A stretch of DNA of 64,000 bases, from the IMG/VR virus record IMGVR_UViG_3300037602_000037; one strand, given 5' to 3'. Below, one piece after another: positions 43,955 through 52,326 of this stretch (position 1 is its first letter; each line of letters begins with the position of its first letter). Position numbers and translations under genes: made by a program. The notes under the pieces were generated by a model. That model saw only the letters and a program-made list of their open reading frames with translations, was not told the DNA's origin and searched no databases. This DNA comes from a virus. Lineage: Duplodnaviria; Caudoviricetes.

Positions 43955-44454
43955 TGATTAGTGATTCAACGGAAAAAGTTATAGGCCATATAAAAAATGC
44001 AATAGCCGAGAATATTAGTGATCCTCCAAATGAGTCTTATACTATGACAATTGGACCGTATAAACTGTCTGGTAGTGGAGGTACTATAGTAGGAATAAGG
44101 TACGATACTGATGGCACAATACATGCTATTCTTGAAAATGGAACCACCTTTGAATTGGAAGTAGACGATAACGACAATGTAAATGTATCTGTTATTTCAT
44201 CTGAAATACTACCACTGATTCCATTGCAAACTGCTTTAGTACCTGCTGAAGACGAAGACTTTTTACCTACCAAAAATAAAACTATTGAGACGATGGTAGC
44301 CAATTTCCTTAAGTGGGAATTACCTGAAGATTTTTCTCCCGATGGAGGTATAACTTTTTCTAAGTCTGATAGTATGCCAGTAGGTACTAATCTGTTGACA
44401 TATGAGCAAGCCAAGAATATGATTGAATTTATAACTAAGGGTGTACTGAAATGA
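43954..44454 (+). CDS. hypothetical protein
   Basis: Coupled ORF. Confidence 0.6.
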   Translation: MISDSTEKVIGHIKNAIAENISDPPNESYTMTIGPYKLSGSGGTIVGIRYDTDGTIHAILENGTTFELEVDDNDNVNVSVISSEILPLIPLQTALVPAEDEDFLPTKNKTIETMVANFLKWELPEDFSPDGGITFSKSDSMPVGTNLLTYEQAKNMIEFITKGVLK

Positions 44455-44726
44455 TAATTTTGGGTAACCGCATTCATAAAGATGTTATCGACAGATACGA
44501 TGATATGCTTAAAACTAAAACGAATGAAATTAAACCAACACCAGGATATGAATTAAGTCCTAGCCATCTTAGGTGGATGTTGGTAAATATTAAATATGAG
44601 GCAGATTTGTTTAAAGCCCAGCGTTGGCTTGGGTTCGTACAAGCTGGCGTAGTAATTTTAGGTTTAACAACGGTTGAAAAAGAAAGAGATTTCACCAGAC
44701 CTTACTTTTCCGATAATAGTAAGTAG
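44451..44726 (+). CDS. hypothetical protein
   Basis: Coupled ORF; HLRWM...KAQRWLGFVQ. Confidence 0.6.
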   Translation: MIILGNRIHKDVIDRYDDMLKTKTNEIKPTPGYELSPSHLRWMLVNIKYEADLFKAQRWLGFVQAGVVILGLTTVEKERDFTRPYFSDNSK

Positions 44727-44743
44727 TTTAGGTCGGTGTAGTA

Positions 44744-44807
44744 AAACGTTTGTTCTGGTAGCTACTACCAATTAGTTGTTTACTAGTTTGTAACTCCAAT
44801 ATATAAT
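44744..44807 (+). promoter_or_regulatory. sigma70-like promoter with upstream AAACGTTTGT box
   Basis: AAACGTTTGT 44744-44753; TTTACT(44779)-N17-TATAAT(44802). Confidence 0.6.
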
Positions 44808-44833
44808 AGTATAAAAGGAGAAAGGTTTACCCG

Positions 44834-45292
44834 ATGATGATAACCGACCGTCGTATAAAAATTGGAATTATGGCTTTGGACCCTAAAGCTTGGCATCCTG
44901 AATATGCTACTAAGGGTTCTGTTGGAGCTGATTTGAGAGCCTGTATAGACAGTCAAATCGAAATTGGTCCCGGACAAACAAAAGTAATATCGACTGGTAT
45001 TGCTATTGACCTGCCCTATAATTACGCGGCGGAAGTGCGTAGCCGTTCGGGTATGGCCGCTAAAAATAGTGTGGTAGTAGCTAATAGCCCTGGTACTATC
45101 GACTCTGACTACAAGGGCGAAATAAAAGTAATTTTGATTAACCATGGGGATAAGGATACCATAATATTCCCGCGTCAGCGTATAGCGCAGCTAGTTATTG
45201 TACCGGCTTACCGAGCGGACTTTGAAAGTATATACGAAATGACAGAATCTACCAGAGGTAAAGGTGGATTAGGTTCAACCGGTAATGAATGA
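44834..45292 (+). CDS. dut: trimeric dUTPase
   Basis: GADL, RSRSG, GTIDSDYKGE, RIAQL, RGKGGLGSTG. Confidence 0.95.
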   Translation: MMITDRRIKIGIMALDPKAWHPEYATKGSVGADLRACIDSQIEIGPGQTKVISTGIAIDLPYNYAAEVRSRSGMAAKNSVVVANSPGTIDSDYKGEIKVILINHGDKDTIIFPRQRIAQLVIVPAYRADFESIYEMTESTRGKGGLGSTGNE

Positions 45293-45326
45293 AAAACGTT
45301 TAGTAAACCAAACGAAGGAAGATAAG

Positions 45327-45533
45327 ATGAAACTGAATGAAGTTGTGGAAGTTCGTGGTGTTACAAAGAAGGGCAAGGACCGAGTAAAGCGTCACGGCAG
45401 CAAATGGAAGGTTATCCGTACTAGCGGTAACGGATTTCTTTTGAGTTCGGTGGAAACACAGTACAATAAGTGGGTTTACACAAACGTTAAAAACGATTTC
45501 GAGGTAGTCCGAAATCTCGAAAACGTGGGCTAA
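45327..45533 (+). CDS. hypothetical protein
   Basis: AAGGA RBS before ATG 45327. Confidence 0.55.
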   Translation: MKLNEVVEVRGVTKKGKDRVKRHGSKWKVIRTSGNGFLLSSVETQYNKWVYTNVKNDFEVVRNLENVG

Positions 45534-45769
45534 TTATCGTCTTGAGCTAACGGTAAAGTGCCTACGTTAGGATCGTAGTTCTCCCCGCTCTACGATCCGA
45601 AACTCAAGTGGTAGTAAACTGTCCTGCTACCTTTTGGTGATAGAAATTGTCGTGGACAGTTTGGCAATAACGCCCTCCCGTACCGGCATCTAACAAACGG
45701 GATGATAGACTGACAGGAAGGAAAAGACTTCAATGTGGAGAGGGAAAGTAAAATTTCCCTCTCTGCGAC

Positions 45770-45898
45770 CTTTGTAATTAGGCGAGTGTTGCTGAAGTCA
45801 TTAGTGTAGACAAGGTGCGGCCCATTAGCGGGACAGCGATCTGGTTAGGCCAGCCGGAGCTAGATAAACACCGTCGCAACATTCACCTAATTACAAAG
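45770..45898 (+). ncRNA. candidate structured ncRNA closed by a 23-bp stem
   Basis: CTTTGTAATTAGGCGAGTGTTGC (45770-92) pairs with GCAACATTCACCTAATTACAAAG (45876-98); internal hairpins. Confidence 0.55.
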
Positions 45899-45908
45899 TA
45901 TAATTCGT

Positions 45909-45992
45909 GGCCACGTGTCGGAATTGGTAGACGATGGGGACTTAAAATCCCTTGCCTAGTGCGTGCGGGTTCGACTCCCGCCGTGGCCACCA
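45909..45992 (+). tRNA. tRNA-Leu(UAA)
   Basis: Acceptor GGCCACG/CGTGGCC, anticodon loop CT-TAA-AA, long variable arm, GGTTCGACTCC, encoded CCA. Confidence 0.93.
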
Positions 45993-46031
45993 ATTATACT
46001 TTGGTAAGCAAATGTGAAAGAGGAATCACAT

Positions 46032-46265
46032 ATGGGTGCTAGACTTTTAGAAAACGAAGATATTGATAAGTTTATTCCTGAACTCAAAAAGTTAGACGAC
46101 GTAGGATACGTCGAGGAAGGTCCAGTGGATGAGCTTAGAAAAGAGATAGAGCTTCGAGTTGGTTACCCCATTGCTCGTTCTTTGTTCTTTAGATTGATTA
46201 AATATGAGATGGCAGAACGGTACATAGAAAAGGTGTTAAATTCCAAGGAAGATTCAAATGGCTAA
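46032..46265 (+). CDS. hypothetical protein
   Basis: AGGA RBS before ATG 46032. Confidence 0.6.
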   Translation: MGARLLENEDIDKFIPELKKLDDVGYVEEGPVDELRKEIELRVGYPIARSLFFRLIKYEMAERYIEKVLNSKEDSNG

Positions 46266-46494
46266 AACAACTGGCACTGTCTCAATTGGGGACGAAGTAG
46301 ATTGCGGCGGCGCTGTAGGTAAAGTAAAAGCAATTGAAGGAGCTTACGTAATAGTTAAAGGTGTTTATGACTACGGCGGTTTAGTAGAACCTTACACTTT
46401 TGAATACAAAAAGGAAGAACTAGAAGCTTGTTCTATTAATGAGTGTAACCAACGGGATGCTTCTAATTTGGAACATGGTTACGTGGTAGCTTAA
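46258..46494 (+). CDS. hypothetical protein
   Basis: AAGGA RBS. Confidence 0.6.
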   Translation: MAKTTGTVSIGDEVDCGGAVGKVKAIEGAYVIVKGVYDYGGLVEPYTFEYKKEELEACSINECNQRDASNLEHGYVVA

Positions 46495-46599
46495 ACTTGA
46501 AATTAGGGTGTGTCGTCTTTAATGACATTAAATCGCTGTTGAATAATCGACTGGCTAAGTAGATTTGCGTTCTACCCCTTGTACCTTGAAAGGTAAATT

Positions 46600-46872
46600 A
46601 TGAGAGATGCTGATTTTGACAGTTTTTTAATTGATCCTTATAAAAAAGCTACTTATGAAGATAATAAAAAACAACGCTATTCCATCGTGGAACCGGAATA
46701 TGAAGAAGGTGATCCAACTTGGTCCGTATTATGTCATTATCAGGAAGAAGAAATTGAAGATGGTGAAGTTGTATTGTCCGGAGGCACTAAAACTTTAGGG
46801 TTGTTTCATTCAAAGCAAAGGGCGGTTGACTTTATAGTAAAAGATAGGAAAGCCAGGAAGATACATTTATGA
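46600..46872 (+). CDS. hypothetical protein
   Basis: ORF track. Confidence 0.6.
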   Translation: MRDADFDSFLIDPYKKATYEDNKKQRYSIVEPEYEEGDPTWSVLCHYQEEEIEDGEVVLSGGTKTLGLFHSKQRAVDFIVKDRKARKIHL

Positions 46873-47204
46873 CTACTACTAGTGAAGTAAGAAACGTTTG
46901 CGTTAGGATATACCCCAACGGTGAAGTAAAGTATTCTGTCAGAGACGAGGAAGGTACTAAGAGTTGGCTAGAGTATAACTCTGTATACCGTTTTGGAAAC
47001 ACGCTTTTCATCAATAGAGTGTACCAAGAAAAAACGGGATATGTTAGACCCGGTCAAAAGAACTTTGAATTGTTCCAAGAATTTGTTAATTCCTTCGAAC
47101 CGGAAGATAGTGTAGAAAGGTTCATTCGTGGTGATAATGAAGAGGGTTTTCCTTACTACCATGATGATATTCATGGGCCTTTAATTGAAGTAATCTATGA
47201 ATAA
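46869..47204 (+). CDS. hypothetical protein
   Basis: Coupled ORF. Confidence 0.6.
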   Translation: MTTTSEVRNVCVRIYPNGEVKYSVRDEEGTKSWLEYNSVYRFGNTLFINRVYQEKTGYVRPGQKNFELFQEFVNSFEPEDSVERFIRGDNEEGFPYYHDDIHGPLIEVIYE

Positions 47205-47350
47205 CGTATCTGATGAGTTTGTGAAACTCAAACGTAACCAGAGTACTAAGTAGGTGAGGCTACTATAAATAATCCTCACAAGTTAGGGCGTCTGCTATAT
47301 GTGATTGGTGTAATCGGTGTTAGCTACCGAGTATAGTAGGTGAAAGCCCT

Positions 47351-47429
47351 TCCAATTGTTGTTGCTATTCGGTTTGGGGTCGCGACCTAAGCGTATTGCG
47401 GAGTATGAGTTCCGTCAATAACAATTGGA
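47351..47429 (+). ncRNA. candidate small structured RNA (14-bp closing stem + two hairpins)
   Basis: TCCAATTGTTGTTG / CAATAACAATTGGA; inner GTTTGGG..CCTAAGC and CGGAG..TTCCG. Confidence 0.45.
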
Positions 47430-47436
47430 GAAGATT

Positions 47437-47472
47437 GGGTGCTTAGCTCAGCTGGTTAGAGCAACCGCCTTA
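47437..47472 (+). pseudogene. 5' half of a split tRNA gene (probably Val-UAC)
   Basis: GGGTGCT-TA-GCTC-AGCTGGTTA-GAGC-A-ACCGC-CT-TA, broken within the anticodon; acceptor strand pairs with 48232-48238. Confidence 0.85.
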
Positions 47473-48207
47473 TTTTGGGAGTATAGCTTAGTGGTAAAGC
47501 AATCGACTTTTAATCGATTGACCCGAGTTCGATCCTCGGTGCTCCTACCAATTAATTCGAACTAGAATACTAATTCTTTTATATCGCGGGTTCGATATAA
47601 GGATTTATAATATGAAAAAATTTTTAAGGTGTAATGGTTATATTTTGTTGTATAAACCAAAACATCCTAGAGCTTTTTCAAAAGGTAAAGCAGGTAAGAA
47701 CGGATTAGCAGGATATGTATATGAACATATTTACGTAGCCGAACGAAGTATGCATAGAAGACTTAGACCGGAAGAAGATGTCCATCATATGGACTTAGAT
47801 AGATCAAATAATTCTTGGGATAATTTGTTAGTATTGGAAAATACTCAACATGGTAAATTACACGGATTCCTTAAATCTATTGGGTTAAAAGAAAATAATG
47901 TTGGACATAGTCAGCGTAAATATTCAAAAATACCTCGATGCTGCATATGCAAATTTCCTTTACGTAAAGGACAGGATATTACGTGTTCGATTAAATGTGA
48001 TAGAATCAAAAGAAAAAATAATGCAAAAGTTAAAGTTTCCTGTAAAAAATTACATAAACAGTTATCCAAACATTCTTGGGTTAAAGTGGCTGCTTACTAC
48101 GGTTTGTCAGATAACGGACTTAGAAAACACGCAAAGTCTATTGGATTAACTGTATCCGATTATAAAGGTGGTAAATTTGTAGGATACAAACAACCTGAGT
48201 TCAATTA
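47473..48207 (+). mobile_element. tRNA-Lys + HNH endonuclease cassette inserted in a tRNA gene
   Basis: Lies between complementary halves of an outer tRNA. Confidence 0.75.
47477..47550 (+). tRNA. tRNA-Lys(UUU)
   Basis: GGGAGTA/TGCTCCT acceptor, ATCGA-CT-TTT-AA-TCGAT anticodon arm, CCGAG-TTCGATC-CTCGG, CCA. Confidence 0.93.
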
Positions 48208-48208
48208 G
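47612..48208 (+). CDS. HNH homing endonuclease
   Basis: YEHIYVAE...EDVHHMDLDRSNNSWDNL; CCIC..CSIKC zinc motif; C-terminal HTH-like segment. Confidence 0.88.
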   Translation: MKKFLRCNGYILLYKPKHPRAFSKGKAGKNGLAGYVYEHIYVAERSMHRRLRPEEDVHHMDLDRSNNSWDNLLVLENTQHGKLHGFLKSIGLKENNVGHSQRKYSKIPRCCICKFPLRKGQDITCSIKCDRIKRKNNAKVKVSCKKLHKQLSKHSWVKVAAYYGLSDNGLRKHAKSIGLTVSDYKGGKFVGYKQPEFN

Positions 48209-48242
48209 TAGGTCGTGGGTTCGAGTCCCACAGCACCCACCA
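48208..48242 (+). pseudogene. 3' half of split tRNA gene 1
   Basis: GT-AGGTC-GTGGG-TTCGAGT-CCCAC-AGCACCC-ACCA. Confidence 0.88.
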
Positions 48243-48260
48243 ATATTTTGGAGAACATCA

Positions 48261-48371
48261 ATGCGTTTAACTATTTACTGTATTTTTATTACTCTTTTCG
48301 TATCATCCTGTGGTATTATTCCTAAGAACTGTTCTCAAGACGAGTACTTAACCAACAGTTTATGCAATTAG
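48261..48371 (+). CDS. small lipoprotein (36 aa, not in ORF track)
   Basis: GGAG RBS; MRLTIYCIFITLFVSSC lipobox-like. Confidence 0.55.
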   Translation: MRLTIYCIFITLFVSSCGIIPKNCSQDEYLTNSLCN

Positions 48372-48382
48372 CGAGATTTTCT

Positions 48383-48736
48383 ATGAGTGCTTATACCAAG
48401 CATAATTCAAAATTTTATTATTCTCTTGTAGATGATAAGTACTCAGTAATTGACCCCGTTACTTGGCATGTAGGTTCCATTTATGGTCCTACTATTGAAG
48501 TGCCTGAAGACTTCAATTTCGATGTATCGATACCTAAAATACTGGTTTGGTTATTCGATCCGCACGATAAACGTTATATTAAAGCTGCTTGTTTGCACGA
48601 TTACATGCTAAGTGAACTTAAGTGGAATAGGTTAACAGCCGCTGCTGAATTTCATGAAGCTTTATTGGCAGATAAAGTACCTATTTGGAGGCGGTTAGTT
48701 ATGTTTTTGGCTACTGCTTTGTATAGGTACAAATAA
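48383..48736 (+). CDS. DUF1353-like protein
   Basis: IEVPEDFNFDVSIP, AACLHDYM. Confidence 0.7.
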   Translation: MSAYTKHNSKFYYSLVDDKYSVIDPVTWHVGSIYGPTIEVPEDFNFDVSIPKILVWLFDPHDKRYIKAACLHDYMLSELKWNRLTAAAEFHEALLADKVPIWRRLVMFLATALYRYK

Positions 48737-48756
48737 TATTATCATAGGATACGATA

Positions 48757-49029
48757 ATGTCAAATAAGCTTATTAAAACTGTTACTGAGGTGAGCGCTCT
48801 ACCTATTGAAAATGCTCCGAAAGACGGTACACTAATTAAGCTACTAGTTGATTATTCAGGTAAAGAATCCCGTTATCCGTTAGATGATTTGAAAGTGGCG
48901 TGGACTATTGGTTTTAACAATCTTGACAATACAGAAATAGACGAGTGGGAAATGGTAGGATGGAATTGGTCACAAGACCATTTTACTAACGGTAAAGGTA
49001 AGGTAATAGGTTGGCTTCCGTTCTTTTAA
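48757..49029 (+). CDS. hypothetical protein (PIExAPKDGT family)
   Basis: PIENAPKDGT...IGWLP. Confidence 0.65.
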   Translation: MSNKLIKTVTEVSALPIENAPKDGTLIKLLVDYSGKESRYPLDDLKVAWTIGFNNLDNTEIDEWEMVGWNWSQDHFTNGKGKVIGWLPFF

Positions 49030-49047
49030 CGTAACATATAGTATGTT

Positions 49048-49071
49048 GGGCTTGTAGCTCAATTGGTTAGA
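49048..49071 (+). pseudogene. 5' fragment of split tRNA gene 2
   Basis: GGGCTTG-TA-GCTC-AATTGGTTA-GA, broken in the D-stem; acceptor strand pairs with 49743-49749. Confidence 0.85.
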
Positions 49072-49080
49072 TATAGTTAC

Positions 49081-49156
49081 GGGGGAGTAGCTCAATGGTT
49101 AGAGCCAGTTGCTCATAACAACTTGGTTGCAGGTTCGAGTCCTGTCTCCCCTACCA
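49081..49156 (+). tRNA. tRNA with CAU anticodon (elongator Met or lysidine Ile2)
   Basis: GGGGGAG/CTCCCCT acceptor, AGTTG-CT-CAT-AA-CAACT, GCAGG-TTCGAGT-CCTGT, CCA. Confidence 0.92.
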
Positions 49157-49171
49157 ACTGTTAGGTGTATA

Positions 49172-49717
49172 ATGAAAGTATCTTGTACTACAAAAGAAAC
49201 TAGGAAGCGAGATAAATTTTTGTTACCTTATTTAAGGAAACTATTTATTATAGACCAAGGTAAAGGTTTGGTACGTAGTAAATATTCGGGTAAACTAGTA
49301 GGTAAACCTCGTAATAAAAACTCTTATGGAGGTATAGGATTAAAAATAAATGGTAAATGCTATTTTATTAATACCCATAGGGTTATTTGGTTAGTATCAA
49401 AAGGTCTTGTACCCGTAGGTTACGTTATAAACCATAAAAACGGAGTCAAAAGTATATCTAAAATATCTAATTTAGAATGCATTTCAGCCGGAAATAATCA
49501 AAAACACGCTTACAGAAATAAATTGAGAAATATTTCTAATAATCCAGGTTCTAATAACGGCAATGCTCTTTTTACCAATAAACAGGTTAGTAAAATTCGT
49601 AAATTGTTTATTGGTAAAAAGAAAAGTAGAAATAACTTTTACAAAGTAGCTAAATTTTATGGTGTTTCTACCAATACAATACGTTCTATGGTAAACAATC
49701 AAACGTATAAAACATAA
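49172..49717 (+). CDS. HNH homing endonuclease
   Basis: THRVIW...VINHKNGVKSISKISNLEC..GNNQKHAY; C-terminal HTH (VAKFYGVSTNTIRSMV); AGGTG RBS before ATG 49172. Confidence 0.88.
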   Translation: MKVSCTTKETRKRDKFLLPYLRKLFIIDQGKGLVRSKYSGKLVGKPRNKNSYGGIGLKINGKCYFINTHRVIWLVSKGLVPVGYVINHKNGVKSISKISNLECISAGNNQKHAYRNKLRNISNNPGSNNGNALFTNKQVSKIRKLFIGKKKSRNNFYKVAKFYGVSTNTIRSMVNNQTYKT

Positions 49718-49753
49718 GATTGGTTGGGGGTTCGAGTCCCTCCAGGCCCACCA
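49718..49753 (+). pseudogene. 3' half of split tRNA gene 2
   Basis: GAT-TGGTT-GGGGG-TTCGAGT-CCCTC-CAGGCCC-ACCA. Confidence 0.88.
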
Positions 49754-49829
49754 TACTATATGCTATTCAAATTCCGCAATGGTGCGGATAGGCGGTTGCG
49801 GCCGTCGCTTTCGACTATAGGAGATAAGT

Positions 49830-50105
49830 ATGTCGGAATCTGAAGAAGTAAGCATGTCTGTTGAGTACCGCATTAAGGAAGTCAAACGTTATATTGTTAC
49901 TAGATGCTATAATATAACGGGTCCAGGTCAATCATCAGGAGGCGTCGAAGAACGCGGTGAATTTCAAAATGCGGATATAGCCTGGGAAGTAGGTTACGCT
50001 TTGTGTAAAGCCGAGCATGAACGACTCGGATATCCGGTAGATGATGAGCGAATCCAGTACCCTCGTCATCCTAGCAGTAGTATCGCTTCACCCAATGTTA
50101 GTTAA
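49830..50105 (+). CDS. hypothetical protein
   Basis: AGGAG RBS. Confidence 0.65.
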   Translation: MSESEEVSMSVEYRIKEVKRYIVTRCYNITGPGQSSGGVEERGEFQNADIAWEVGYALCKAEHERLGYPVDDERIQYPRHPSSSIASPNVS

Positions 50106-50118
50106 GTAACTTAGAACC

Positions 50119-50156
50119 TGGCGGGCTAATAATAAAATTAGCCCGCCAACTTATTT
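50119..50156 (+). terminator. intrinsic terminator-like hairpin
   Basis: TGGCGGGCTAAT / ATTAGCCCGCCA. Confidence 0.6.
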
Positions 50157-50176
50157 GAACGAAAATGGAGATAAGC

Positions 50177-50938
50177 ATGACTCAGAAGATTTTTATTGCT
50201 AAAAGCGACGTTAGTATTGATATTAAGGAAGGCCAGTTGTTCTATTATGAAAAAGGCGGTACGGTTGAACTAATTCCCTCTAACTTTGAACTAGTTCCAG
50301 AAGAACTACAACCAATAAACGCTGATTCTTTAGAGGAAAATGATTTTTTCCTTGACATAGAAAATGATTTGCGTATTGTGGGAGGGGTTACCTCTAAGTA
50401 CGTAGTAACCTTGCCGGTTGAAATTGAGTATACAACTGAAACTATTAGTGAAAAACCTCAACTTAAAGGCGGTCCTGATGTAAGTTTAATAGACGATGAT
50501 TACGACGATGACGACATTGAAGAAGATGATAAACCAATATTTGACACTAGTATGGTGCAGGTAATACGTAAAATTAGGGAGGACATCAAGTCTAAAGTAG
50601 TTAAAATGACTTATGAACAAGCTTTAAACTACGTTAAAGAAATAAGTGGTGAGACTTTTAATAAAAAATATGATGACGATGACGAAGGTAACGATGATTT
50701 CCGTAATCGTTACCTTCGTCGTGGCCATAGTAATATCCTTCCTTACCTTAACAAACACGGGCAAAGATGCGTAGTAACTTACCATTTAAAAATTGATGAT
50801 AAACCGGAAGTAATTAATAAAGAAAATTCCGTAATGTTTAAAAATGATGAGTTTTATAATAAGTTCAAACGCACGTCGCCAATAAAAAATAAAAGGAAAA
50901 TAGGTAGGAGTAAACGTGGTGTAGTAATACACAAATAG
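50177..50938 (+). CDS. hypothetical protein
   Basis: GGAG RBS before ATG 50177; acidic tracts. Confidence 0.7.
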   Translation: MTQKIFIAKSDVSIDIKEGQLFYYEKGGTVELIPSNFELVPEELQPINADSLEENDFFLDIENDLRIVGGVTSKYVVTLPVEIEYTTETISEKPQLKGGPDVSLIDDDYDDDDIEEDDKPIFDTSMVQVIRKIREDIKSKVVKMTYEQALNYVKEISGETFNKKYDDDDEGNDDFRNRYLRRGHSNILPYLNKHGQRCVVTYHLKIDDKPEVINKENSVMFKNDEFYNKFKRTSPIKNKRKIGRSKRGVVIHK

Positions 50939-51100
50939 TACGCTGATCCGGGATGGGGATATTCCGTTGATCGCTACTATATCACAAAATGTTGACCGTG
51001 TTTTGTGATTAGCTTGACTAAATACCAGTTAGTAAACAAGCACGTCCATATTTGAACCTCGCGAATTATGGACAACGGTTTAATTTGAATGGAGATACAT

Positions 51101-51730
51101 ATGACTAAAGTAGTTATTCCCTTGACAGGTGGAATGGACTCTTCCTACATGGTGTACAAAGCCCTTAATATGGGCTTAGACGTTTACCCTCTTATCTTTG
51201 ACGATAGTTATGGTGGTTACTCCATGAGAGATAAGACTATCAAACCAGCTATTAGGGTACTACAACAAGCAGGACTTGCCCACAAAGTTCACATCATACC
51301 CTTCTTTCCCACCAATGTACATAAACTATCTGATGAGCACTACGGTTACACTCCGGGTAGGAATATGCTAATAGCTATGTCTAGTGTTGCTTATGCGGAG
51401 TTTGTTGGTGCTGATGAAGTATGGCTGGGTTTCAACGCTTCACAAGAAGGTTTTTACCCTGATCAAAATCAAAAAATGTTTGATGACATTTCTAATCTGT
51501 ATGAAAGCGTTTACAATTTCAAGGTCACCATTGTTCTTCCTCTTTTAGAAATGACTAGAAAGGAAGTAGTAATTTGGGGTACTCAGCTAGGAGTACCTTT
51601 TGAAGAGACTGTTAGCTGTGTTAATACACCAATATCTGTAAATTGTGGTAAGTGTAACAGGTGTAAAGAACGAAAAGAAGCTTTTAAGTCAGCTGGTATA
51701 CCGGATAAAACCATCTACTATGGGGATTAG
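51101..51730 (+). CDS. queC: 7-cyano-7-deazaguanine synthase QueC
   Basis: LTGGMDS, TPGRN, FYPD, ETVSC...CGKCNRC. Confidence 0.88.
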   Translation: MTKVVIPLTGGMDSSYMVYKALNMGLDVYPLIFDDSYGGYSMRDKTIKPAIRVLQQAGLAHKVHIIPFFPTNVHKLSDEHYGYTPGRNMLIAMSSVAYAEFVGADEVWLGFNASQEGFYPDQNQKMFDDISNLYESVYNFKVTIVLPLLEMTRKEVVIWGTQLGVPFEETVSCVNTPISVNCGKCNRCKERKEAFKSAGIPDKTIYYGD

Positions 51731-51731
51731 C

Positions 51732-51971
51732 ATGAATGACTATAGAATGATAATTATCCATACAATAAACATTGTAGCAATTTCCGTTATAATTGTATTA
51801 ATGTCTGCATTTGGCCATACTATCCCATATATCTACAATGTTCTATTGTATGATGGTTTAAGTAAAACGTCGGCTATTGGCATTTTAACATCTTTTACGC
51901 TAATTGTATTAGTAGTGTTAGTAGCAGCAATATTCAAAATACAATCACTAACTAAAATGTTGAAGGAATAG
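51732..51971 (+). CDS. small membrane protein
   Basis: Two hydrophobic segments. Confidence 0.55.
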   Translation: MNDYRMIIIHTINIVAISVIIVLMSAFGHTIPYIYNVLLYDGLSKTSAIGILTSFTLIVLVVLVAAIFKIQSLTKMLKE

Positions 51972-51976
51972 TTACA

Positions 51977-52326
51977 ATGTTAAAAATAGTAGCCAAATTA
52001 ATACTTTTTTTATCTTCATTATTTTGCTTTTACTAGTTCTATCTTTAACCGGAATGTATAACAGGGTAGAAGCGCACGAGGCTCCTACCGGATGGACTTA
52101 TCCCACGTCTTGTTGCAGCAATAAAGATTGTAGGGAAGTTCCCCACACAGAAATAATCGAAACCCCAAATGGATATCTTATTTCTACTACGAATGAACTA
52201 ATACCTTATGACGATAAACGTATACGGGAAAGCCCGGACGGTTTACACCATAGATGCGCGAGAAGTAACAATTTTACTCCTGACGGTGAAACTCTTTGTA
52301 TATTTGTACCACCGAGCTTATTTTAG
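51977..52326 (+). CDS. secreted Cys-rich protein; N-terminus out of frame at T7 run 52005-52011
   Basis: HEAPTGWTYPTSCCSNKDC...SPDG.HHRC..CIFVP; ATG 51977 with AAGGA RBS joins this frame by a -1 shift. Confidence 0.65.

What the first reader, a model, noticed from the sequence alone, without database searches (positions are those of the whole stretch)
47437..48242. Cassette 1: tRNA-Lys(UUU) + HNH inserted in the anticodon loop of a probable tRNA-Val
Seen: GGGTGCT (47437-43) pairs perfectly with AGCACCC (48232-38). The 5' half keeps the D-arm and ACCGC-CT-TA and breaks inside the anticodon. The 3' half resumes at GT-AGGTC, sharing the G of the HNH TAG stop, so about 6 nt (positions ~36-41) are missing. 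The TA start plus G3-C70/U4-A69 suggest Val(UAC), so the cargo seems to be a different isoacceptor (inference). A near-match to the TAATT-N6-TATA motif (TATC; 47571-47585) sits between cargo tRNA and HNH and could give the nuclease its own promoter. tRNA-Lys(UUU) is an established target of host anticodon nucleases (PrrC, PARIS), so the cargo could benefit the phage.
Basis: partly seen in the sequence, partly recalled or inferred. Interest (0 to 1): 0.85.

Follow-up and report, generated by a model that had tools for sequence, protein, structure and literature searches.

The report
Nuclease-plus-tRNA cassette splitting phage tRNA-Val
A selfish DNA-cutting enzyme gene, together with a working lysine tRNA gene, sits inside and has permanently broken a valine tRNA gene of a 166-kb phage; relatives of the enzyme live in self-splicing introns at the same spot of other phage tRNA genes, so the locus shows how such elements reshuffle the small tRNA sets of phages.

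Summary
At 47437-48242 the two ends of one tRNA gene (7/7 acceptor pairing, intact D and T arms, ACCA) enclose an intact tRNA-Lys(UUU) and a 198-aa HNH_3 endonuclease gene.

- **Outer gene:** it is tRNA-Val(UAC). Of 48 bacterial tRNAs sharing its acceptor and D-arm signature, 45 are Val(UAC).
- **It is dead:** 6-8 nt are missing (the last anticodon base and the 3' anticodon stem). No group I ribozyme is present, and there is no room for one.
- **Enzyme relatives:** full-length relatives lie almost only in phage tRNA clusters. About half sit in Rfam-confirmed group I introns after position 36 of tRNA(CAU) genes. The closest clade is free-standing, just downstream of an intact tRNA (Lys three times, Leu once).
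- **Recurrence:** the same nested layout occurs in cassette 2 of this genome and in an unrelated phage contig (L028). Earlier notes of this scan report it in at least 30 other genomes.

Best reading (about 0.65): the scar of a homing-endonuclease insertion that brought a passenger tRNA with it.

Not shown: an unbroken allele (none found), the cleavage target, expression, the proposed promoter, and any anti-defence benefit.

The parts
47437..47472 (+). 5' half of a disrupted tRNA-Val(UAC) gene: positions 1-35 (acceptor GGGTGCT, D arm, 5' anticodon stem ACCGC, CT, TA).
   Evidence: Read. Aligned to bacterial tRNA-Val genes. Signature is 45/48 Val(TAC). Pairs 7/7 with 48232-48238.
47473..47476 (+). 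TTTT junction between the outer 5' half and the inner tRNA. The first T could instead be position 36 of the outer tRNA.
   Evidence: In the alignment this T stands where Val genes have C36.
47477..47550 (+). Intact inner tRNA-Lys(UUU) with encoded CCA and a G1-U72 wobble pair.
   Evidence: ARAGORN. Infernal 71.8 bits. 92% identical to the tRNA-Lys that precedes the homologous HNH in L001. Covariation with 10 compensatory pairs and 100% pairing.
47551..47611 (+). 61-nt leader of the HNH gene. A hairpin (core 47581-47586 with 47593-47598) has a 3' strand that runs into the AAGGA ribosome-binding site (47599-47603). The leader also holds the near-match TAATT-N6-TATC at 47571-47585.
   Evidence: Fold -10 kcal/mol, z -0.86, not distinguishable from shuffles. 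Motif count. A similar TCGAAC...GGTTCGAT pair stands in the intron 5' part of L004/L008 and in the phiKZ gp296 leader; suggestive only.
47612..48208 (+). HNH_3 homing-endonuclease gene, 198 aa: N-terminal strands plus HNH motif, four-cysteine cluster, C-terminal helix-turn-helix.
   Evidence: Pfam PF13392 at 27.2 bits. PHROG 15471 at E 2.8e-24. Keeps all 23 invariant columns of the family alignment. AlphaFold pLDDT 85.4. Best structural match I-HmuI, Z 5.4 over residues 1-89.
48208..48242 (+). 3' half of the disrupted tRNA-Val: possible positions 42-43 (GT), variable loop AGGTC, T arm 48215-48231, acceptor AGCACCC, A73, CCA.
   Evidence: Starts on the last base of the HNH stop codon.

Best explanation
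Cassette 1 is the scar of a homing-endonuclease insertion into a phage tRNA-Val(UAC) gene.

The inserted unit is a free-standing HNH_3 endonuclease gene together with the intact tRNA-Lys(UUU) gene just upstream of it. The enzyme comes from a lineage that is otherwise carried by group I introns in tRNA anticodon loops.

Proposed course (inferred):
1. The enzyme, or an ancestor of it, cut a tRNA gene in or next to the anticodon arm.
2. The break lost 6-8 nt.
3. The tRNA-Lys plus HNH block was joined in by illegitimate repair.

Consequences:
- With no ribozyme present, tRNA-Val is permanently inactivated.
- The cut site is destroyed, which protects the carrier genome.
- The two still-perfect halves can serve as homology arms that let the cassette home into unbroken tRNA-Val alleles of co-infecting relatives. 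tRNA-Lys would be copied along with it, as tRNA genes are with SegB in T4.
- The upstream tRNA probably also gives the nuclease gene its transcription and a processed 5' end. It serves AAA, the commonest codon of the phage.

Shown here: the anatomy, the Val identity, the loss of function, the selection on tRNA-Lys, the intactness of the HNH, the family's tie to tRNA genes and introns, and the recurrence of the layout.

Inferred: the cleavage target, the insertion event, ongoing homing and any benefit to the phage.
For: - Anatomy and the 6-8 nt gap.
- No tRNA is called across the halves, even allowing introns.
- No group I intron in the region at E<=5 or anywhere in the genome. There is no space after the ORF, whereas intron-borne relatives keep 110-190 nt of core there.
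- Outer gene is Val(UAC): 45 of 48.
- The same tRNA-Lys plus HNH pair occurs without outer halves in L001 and L014. HNH is 50% and 45% identical, and tRNA-Lys is 92% identical in L001.
- Tree: WIN1+L002 (support 100/99) and their clade with L001+L014 (99/95) form a free-standing group among intron-borne relatives.
- The family inserts after position 36 of tRNA genes. This holds for the group I introns in tRNA(CAU) in L004, L008, L016, L019, L023, L025, L032, L034, L037 and L040, and for a precise ribozyme-free case in tRNA-Lys (L048). The left junction here is at 35/36.
- The same nested layout with other inner tRNAs: cassette 2 (Met-CAU, a very different HNH) and L028 (Thr-UGU). L002 has tRNA-Leu, HNH and an orphan 3' half.
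- Control: distant HNH_3 relatives L051-L093 are not next to tRNAs.
- The HNH keeps all invariant residues.
- tRNA-Lys covaries.
- AAA is used at 50 per 1000 codons.
- Precedent: SegB cuts tRNA genes and spreads itself with neighbouring tRNA genes (PMC2330249; PMC13096335).
Against: - No unbroken tRNA-Val allele or close relative of the locus was found in viral, genome or metagenome collections. The before state is therefore not documented.
- The un-nested tRNA-Lys plus HNH pairs in L001 and L014 could mean the pair is the resident feature and the Val halves need another origin.
- Both halves show no decay at all. That fits a recent event, but it would equally fit selection on the halves.
- The closest HNH (L002) follows a tRNA-Leu rather than tRNA-Lys, so the unit is not constant.
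- GTA is a common codon here (25.9 per 1000), so losing tRNA-Val(UAC) is not obviously free of cost.
- Nothing shows what DNA the enzyme cuts.
Confidence: 0.65

Rival explanations
1. Decayed intron. tRNA-Val once carried a group I intron with this HNH gene in its anticodon loop. The ribozyme core and a few exon bases were later deleted, and a tRNA-Lys gene came to lie in the 5' part of the former intron.
For: About half of the full-length relatives are inside Rfam-confirmed group I introns at the same loop position. The free-standing clade sits among them in the tree. The leader carries a TCGAAC...GGTTCGAT pair like the exon-intron pairing element of the L004/L008 introns, and so does the phiKZ gp296 leader.
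Against: All introns found are in tRNA(CAU), none in Val. The rival needs a whole tRNA gene inserted into an intron plus a separate deletion. The three closest relatives (L001, L002, L014) have no intron and do not share the leader element. GGTTCGA is also the generic T-loop sequence, so the resemblance may be accidental. No ribozyme remnant was found.
Confidence: 0.15
2. Rearrangement inside a tRNA array. Nuclease-induced breaks in tRNA genes, followed by recombination between neighbouring tRNA genes, shuffled a former Val, Lys, HNH array into the nested order without any discrete mobile cassette. SegB-driven segmental amplification in T6 works this way.
For: SegB cuts inside tRNA genes at the T-loop motif and drives recombination-dependent amplification of tRNA-plus-nuclease segments (PMC13096335). 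In cassette 2 the outer and inner tRNAs share an almost identical D arm.
Against: Homologous exchange between tRNA genes would give chimeric tRNAs joined at shared sequence. It would not give a truncated tRNA, four extra bases and then a complete different tRNA. It needs a duplication and two deletions where one insertion suffices. Both halves belong to one and the same tRNA (7/7 pairing).
Confidence: 0.1
3. The halves still work. After the inner tRNA is cut out by tRNA-processing enzymes, the 5' and 3' halves pair into a tRNA-like domain without an anticodon arm (tmRNA-like topology). That domain would process, stabilise or regulate the nuclease mRNA, or would distract tRNA-targeting host nucleases.
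For: No decay in 69 nt of halves here, nor in cassette 2 and L028. The 3' half starts exactly at the stop codon in three cases.
Against: L001 and L014 carry the same tRNA-Lys plus HNH pair with no halves, so the halves are not needed for either gene. L002 keeps only the 3' half. No covariation data exist. A recent insertion explains the lack of decay.
Confidence: 0.1

Closest known systems
Phage T4/T6 SegB, a free-standing GIY-YIG homing endonuclease in the tRNA gene cluster (PMC2330249; PMC13096335)
   Same: A nuclease gene sits among phage tRNA genes. SegB cuts tRNA gene DNA at the conserved T-arm motif. It spreads itself together with neighbouring tRNA genes in mixed infections. It can raise the dose of a tRNA that counters a tRNA-cutting defence.
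   Different: A different nuclease fold (GIY-YIG, not HNH). SegB lies between tRNA genes, not inside one. No nested tRNA-in-tRNA layout is described for it. For the enzyme here neither cutting nor homing has been shown.
Group I introns in tRNA anticodon loops that carry a homing endonuclease. Seen here in phage tRNA(CAU) genes (L004, L008, L016 and others). From my own knowledge, the cyanobacterial tRNA-fMet intron encoding I-Ssp6803I.
   Same: The same endonuclease family (33-42% identity), the same host gene type and the same insertion point in the anticodon loop.
   Different: Those inserts self-splice, so the tRNA stays functional, and they carry no second tRNA. Cassette 1 has no ribozyme, lacks 6-8 exon bases and contains a complete tRNA-Lys.
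I-HmuI, the intron-encoded HNH nicking endonuclease of Bacillus phage SPO1 (PDB 1U3E)
   Same: Best structural match of the N-terminal 89 residues (Z 5.4, rmsd 4.0, 76 aligned, 20% identity). A similar modular build with a C-terminal helix-turn-helix.
   Different: The match is weak and covers only the catalytic part. No sequence-level hit to any solved structure. I-HmuI sits in a DNA polymerase gene intron, not in a tRNA gene.
The 'enigmatic' tRNA introns of Lak megaphages, one of which 'itself may encode a tRNA' (Devoto et al. 2019, PMC6784885)
   Same: A published case of a phage tRNA gene interrupted by a sequence that contains another tRNA. Alleles with and without the insert are present in that case.
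   Different: No endonuclease gene is reported in those inserts, they are short, and the host tRNA exons are treated as intact.

Membership tests
HNH_3 homing endonucleases (Pfam PF13392; I-HmuI-like) | HNH (beta-beta-alpha metal) motif with the catalytic His and Asn residues. | tested here: met
   PF13392 at 27.2 bits, above the 24.8 cut-off. PHROG HNH endonuclease families. Invariant H58, H59, N66, N67, N71, H80 and H84 all present.
HNH_3 homing endonucleases (Pfam PF13392; I-HmuI-like) | Site-specific cutting of the element-free allele, and preferential inheritance of the gene. | not testable with these tools
   Needs enzyme assays and phage crosses. No element-free allele was found to compare.
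Group I intron (Rfam RF00028) | Catalytic core (P3-P9) detectable by the covariance model. | tested here: not met
   No match at E<=5 in 44000-52000 and none in the whole genome. The same model scores 56-90 bits on introns holding related HNH genes.
Group I intron (Rfam RF00028) | Intact exons that give a functional product once the insert is removed. | tested here: not met
   Joining the halves leaves no anticodon stem 3' strand and no position 36. ARAGORN calls no valid tRNA unless six bases are supplied.
tRNA (inner tRNA-Lys UUU) | Cloverleaf with conserved tertiary positions, kept by compensatory change. | tested here: met
   Infernal 71.8 bits. ARAGORN. 21 pairs all formed in 4 relatives, 10 with changes on both sides, 0 of 500 shuffles as good.
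tRNA-Val(UAC) (outer halves) | Acceptor and D-arm signature, A73, and an anticodon starting UA. | tested here: met
   45 of 48 bacterial tRNAs with the same 27-nt signature are Val(TAC). The 3' half is nearly identical to them. The third anticodon base is missing, so the anticodon itself cannot be read in full.
Free-standing homing endonuclease with co-converted flanking genes (SegB-like system) | The nuclease gene lies beside, not within, a self-splicing element, and its neighbours are inherited with it. | tested here: inconclusive
   Free-standing status is met. The tRNA-Lys plus HNH linkage is conserved in L001 and L014 but not in L002. Co-inheritance itself was not tested.

The most novel reading that the evidence does not exclude
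The perfectly preserved outer halves are not just a scar. Once the inner tRNA-Lys is cut out by RNase P and 3' trimming, the halves would re-associate through the 7-bp acceptor stem and the D/T-loop contacts. That would form an anticodon-less, CCA-ended tRNA-like cap on the nuclease mRNA, in a tmRNA-like topology. Such a cap could control the stability or translation of the mRNA, or draw off tRNA-targeting host defence nucleases. It would be a reusable RNA module that this class of mobile elements builds out of the tRNA genes it breaks.
Probability: 0.1. Interest if true: 0.8.

Novelty: new variant of a known kind. Interest (0 to 1): 0.55.

Why it matters
Phage tRNA genes are now known to decide the outcome of infection against tRNA-cutting defences (PARIS, Septu, retrons). 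Homing endonucleases such as SegB move and amplify those genes.

This locus, and the family survey around it, shows a further route. An HNH endonuclease lineage switches between group I introns in tRNA anticodon loops and intron-free cassettes. The intron-free cassettes break one tRNA gene while delivering another. That would make these nucleases direct editors of a phage's tRNA repertoire.

It also gives a concrete series (intron-borne, precise ribozyme-free insert, eroded nested cassette, un-nested pair) for studying how intron endonucleases become free-standing.

I found no paper that describes the nested tRNA-in-tRNA cassette. The nearest published remark is the tRNA-containing 'intron' of Lak megaphages.

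Tried and rejected
**Searches for an unbroken allele or a close relative of the locus**
- Exact 5'-half and 3'-half patterns in viral contigs: nothing.
- A D-arm to anticodon pattern in bacterial genomes: nothing. The same type of pattern in metagenome contigs: nothing.
- The flanking DUF1353 protein in viral contigs: nothing.
- blastn of the region against GenBank phages: only short HNH and tRNA matches.
- A pattern for the tRNA-Lys lineage found 3 viral and 10 metagenome loci. None carried outer halves.

**Other tests that gave nothing usable**
- ARAGORN with introns up to 1500 nt did not join the halves.
- Comparing the halves with 81 phage tRNAs from the fetched loci did not settle the identity. 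The bacterial signature search did.
No RNA or population data could be examined.
- Relatives of the cassette 2 endonuclease in viral contigs: none.
- The leader hairpin is not more stable than shuffled sequence (z -0.86).
- The sigma-70 promoter scan was not above shuffles (12 found, 14.9 expected).
- Sequence search of solved structures with the family profile gave nothing meaningful. Foldseek alone gave no match at E<=0.001.

**Readings considered and dropped**
- The outer tRNA as Arg(UCU) with a mutated anticodon, or as Ile(UAU). Both were dropped.
- The 3' halves of the window and L002 as one ancestral junction. Their acceptor strands differ at 5 of 7 positions and the downstream genes are unrelated.

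Full report
**Setting.** The window is bases 22188-86187 of a complete 165,822-bp IMG/VR phage record with direct terminal repeats. The genome has about 37% G+C and no close relative among GenBank phages. It encodes only three tRNAs: Leu(UAA) at 45909-45992, Lys(UUU) at 47477-47550 and a CAU tRNA at 49081-49156.

**Observation.**
- A tRNA 5' half (47437-47472) has acceptor GGGTGCT, TA, D arm GCTC/GAGC, 5' anticodon stem ACCGC and then CT-TA.
- It is followed by TTTT and the complete tRNA-Lys(UUU) with CCA.
- Then come a 61-nt leader and an ORF of 198 codons (47612-48208).
- Starting on the last base of the stop codon, a tRNA 3' half follows: GT, AGGTC, T arm, AGCACCC, A, CCA (to 48242).
- The acceptor strands pair 7/7.
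- A motif scan of the whole genome finds T arms and D arms only in the three real tRNAs and in two split tRNAs, this one and a second at 49048-49753.
- The only two HNH_3 genes of the genome are the ones inside these two split tRNAs. This cannot be chance.

**Identity of the outer gene.**
- Phage tRNAs from fetched loci did not settle it.
- The 27-nt acceptor plus D-arm signature was then searched in one genome of each of 185,579 species. Of the 48 tRNAs found, 45 are Val(TAC) and 3 are Lys.
- Their 3' ends (AGCACCC-A-CCA) also match.
- In an alignment with three of them, the 5' half matches through position 35. The 3' half matches from the variable loop onward.
- The outer gene is therefore a tRNA-Val(UAC).

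**The outer gene is dead.**
- Positions 36 to 41 (or 43) are missing: the last anticodon base and the 3' strand of the anticodon stem.
- ARAGORN does not join the halves even when introns are allowed. It calls a valid tRNA only if six bases are supplied.
- No group I intron is detected in the region at E<=5 or anywhere in the genome.
- The ORF ends on the exon, so there is no room for a ribozyme core.

**The inner genes are intact.**
- The tRNA-Lys scores 71.8 bits.
- Aligned with three relatives, all 21 pairs form in all sequences and 10 pairs carry changes on both sides. No shuffle or register shift comes close. An unusual G1-U72 pair is invariant.
- The ORF matches Pfam HNH_3 and PHROG HNH endonucleases and keeps all invariant residues of its family, including four cysteines.
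- It folds with pLDDT 85. The N-terminal domain is most like the intron-encoded HNH nickase I-HmuI (Z 5.4, a weak match). The C-terminus is a helix-turn-helix.

**What the relatives show.** Thirty homologues were found in the large protein collection and 80 loci in viral contigs.
- Full-length relatives (L001-L050) lie almost without exception in phage tRNA regions.
- Distant HNH_3 proteins that share only the catalytic domain (L051-L093) do not. This serves as a control.
- About half of the full-length relatives sit in group I introns confirmed by Rfam at 56-90 bits. These introns interrupt tRNA(CAU) genes directly after anticodon position 36.
- The rest are free-standing, 10-90 nt downstream of an intact tRNA on the same strand.
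- Cultured examples in tRNA clusters are phiKZ gp296, Bacillus phage PBC2 gp251 and McCartney gp49.
- In a maximum-likelihood tree the window's enzyme groups with L002 (100/99). This pair groups with L001 and L014 (99/95). Together they form a free-standing clade among intron-borne relatives.
- L001 is a 164-kb contig and L014 a 120-kb contig. Both carry the same tRNA-Lys(UUU) lineage directly in front of the HNH but have no outer halves.
- L002 has a tRNA-Leu(UAA) in front and an orphan tRNA 3' half right behind the HNH, with no 5' half.

**The nested layout recurs.**
- Cassette 2 of this genome has a 5' fragment cut in the D stem, an intact CAU tRNA, a very different HNH_3 gene and a 3' half that starts at the variable loop.
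- L028, from an unrelated 180-kb phage contig, has a 5' fragment (positions 1-24), an intact tRNA-Thr(UGU), an HNH of this family, and a 3' half whose variable loop holds the stop codon.
- L048 has a tRNA-Lys(UUU) split precisely between 36 and 37 by an HNH gene flanked by its own tRNA-like ends, without a ribozyme.
- Earlier notes of this scan list the same architecture in at least 30 other genomes. Those notes are unchecked AI notes and are not used as evidence here.

**Interpretation.** The left junction at 35/36 coincides with the insertion point used by the intron-borne relatives. The tRNA-Lys plus HNH block exists on its own in related phages. One insertion with a small loss of bases explains the anatomy. 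I therefore read cassette 1 as the scar of a homing-endonuclease insertion with a passenger tRNA.

The closest studied system is T4/T6 SegB. It cuts tRNA genes at the T-arm motif, spreads with neighbouring tRNA genes and can amplify a protective tRNA (PMC2330249; PMC13096335).

Rival readings are given separately with lower weights:
- a decayed intron;
- a rearrangement within a tRNA array;
- halves that still function as a tRNA-like RNA end.

The main weakness is that no unbroken allele or close relative of the locus was found in any collection.

- The exact motif TAATT-N6-TATA is moderately enriched in the window: 9 found against 3.3 expected, and 0 of 100 shuffles reach 9. It stands in front of tRNA-Leu. 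The site before the HNH is only a near-match.
- The leader hairpin that would cover the ribosome-binding site is not more stable than shuffled sequence.
- tRNA-Lys is a defence target, and a phage tRNA-Lys can neutralise PARIS; this is published (PMC11464382). Nothing here links this phage to such a defence.
- AAA is the phage's commonest codon at 50 per 1000. GTA, read by the lost tRNA-Val(UAC), is also common at 25.9 per 1000.

**Novelty.** Four literature searches found no description of a nuclease-plus-tRNA cassette nested in a tRNA gene. [quoted passage not shown] I class the finding as a new variant of a known kind, the known kind being homing endonucleases of phage tRNA regions. I score it at moderate interest.

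Noticed in passing
window 49035-49762: Cassette 2. A second split tRNA: 5' fragment 49048-49071 cut in the D stem; 3' half about 49718-49753. It encloses an intact CAU tRNA (49081-49156) and a different HNH_3 gene (49172-49717, 181 aa). The flanks CATATAGTATG (49035-49045) and CATACTATATG (49752-49762) are exact reverse complements and extend the acceptor stem. The outer acceptor resembles tRNA-Ile (from memory; not tested).
   Followed up: partly
L048:1434-2095: A tRNA-Lys(UUU) gene split exactly between positions 36 and 37, with no bases lost. The insert is an HNH gene whose ends form an acceptor stem, T arm and ACCA of their own. No group I intron is detected. The insert looks like one that could be cut out by tRNA-processing enzymes.
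   Followed up: partly
L037:1281-2285 and L040:1283-2285: An outer split tRNA encloses a complete tRNA(CAU) that itself carries a group I intron with an HNH gene. The two spacers next to the inner tRNA are complementary to each other. Phage tmRNA genes lie a few hundred bases upstream (Rfam 79-100 bits).
   Followed up: no
L001:3513-3571 and L001:4557-4598: Hammerhead-ribozyme-like motifs flank the un-nested tRNA-Lys plus HNH pair of the related 164-kb phage contig. Both are below Rfam gathering scores (29 and 29.5 bits). The second starts two bases after the HNH stop codon. Long non-coding stretches of 0.7-0.9 kb surround the pair.
   Followed up: no
window 48261-48371: A 36-codon ORF with a good ribosome-binding site starts 19 nt after the CCA of the outer 3' half. 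It encodes a signal-peptide-like segment followed by Cys (…FVSSC…), which looks like a small lipoprotein. A DUF1353 protein gene follows at 48362-48736.
   Followed up: no
L155 (phiKZ) about 1440-1560 and 2080-2125: The leader of phiKZ gp296 has the same TCGAACTAG...GGTTCGAT element as the window's HNH leader. A degenerate T-arm-plus-acceptor-like remnant lies downstream of the gene. Even this well-studied phage may carry a scar of the same kind.
   Followed up: no
L158:330-1170: An unusual CAU tRNA with a long variable arm, not called by ARAGORN, precedes an HNH of this family. A 3' fragment of a paralogous long-arm tRNA follows the HNH stop codon. The same odd tRNA type occurs in L012.
   Followed up: no
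window 47205-47436 and 45534-45908: Two ORF-free stretches directly upstream of the split tRNA-Val and of tRNA-Leu. Earlier first-reader notes call them structured RNAs. Rfam finds nothing there.
   Followed up: no
window 45888-45902 and eight other sites: The motif TAATT-N6-TATA occurs 9 times against 3.3 expected. One copy lies a few bases in front of tRNA-Leu. It may be a phage-specific promoter element.
   Followed up: partly
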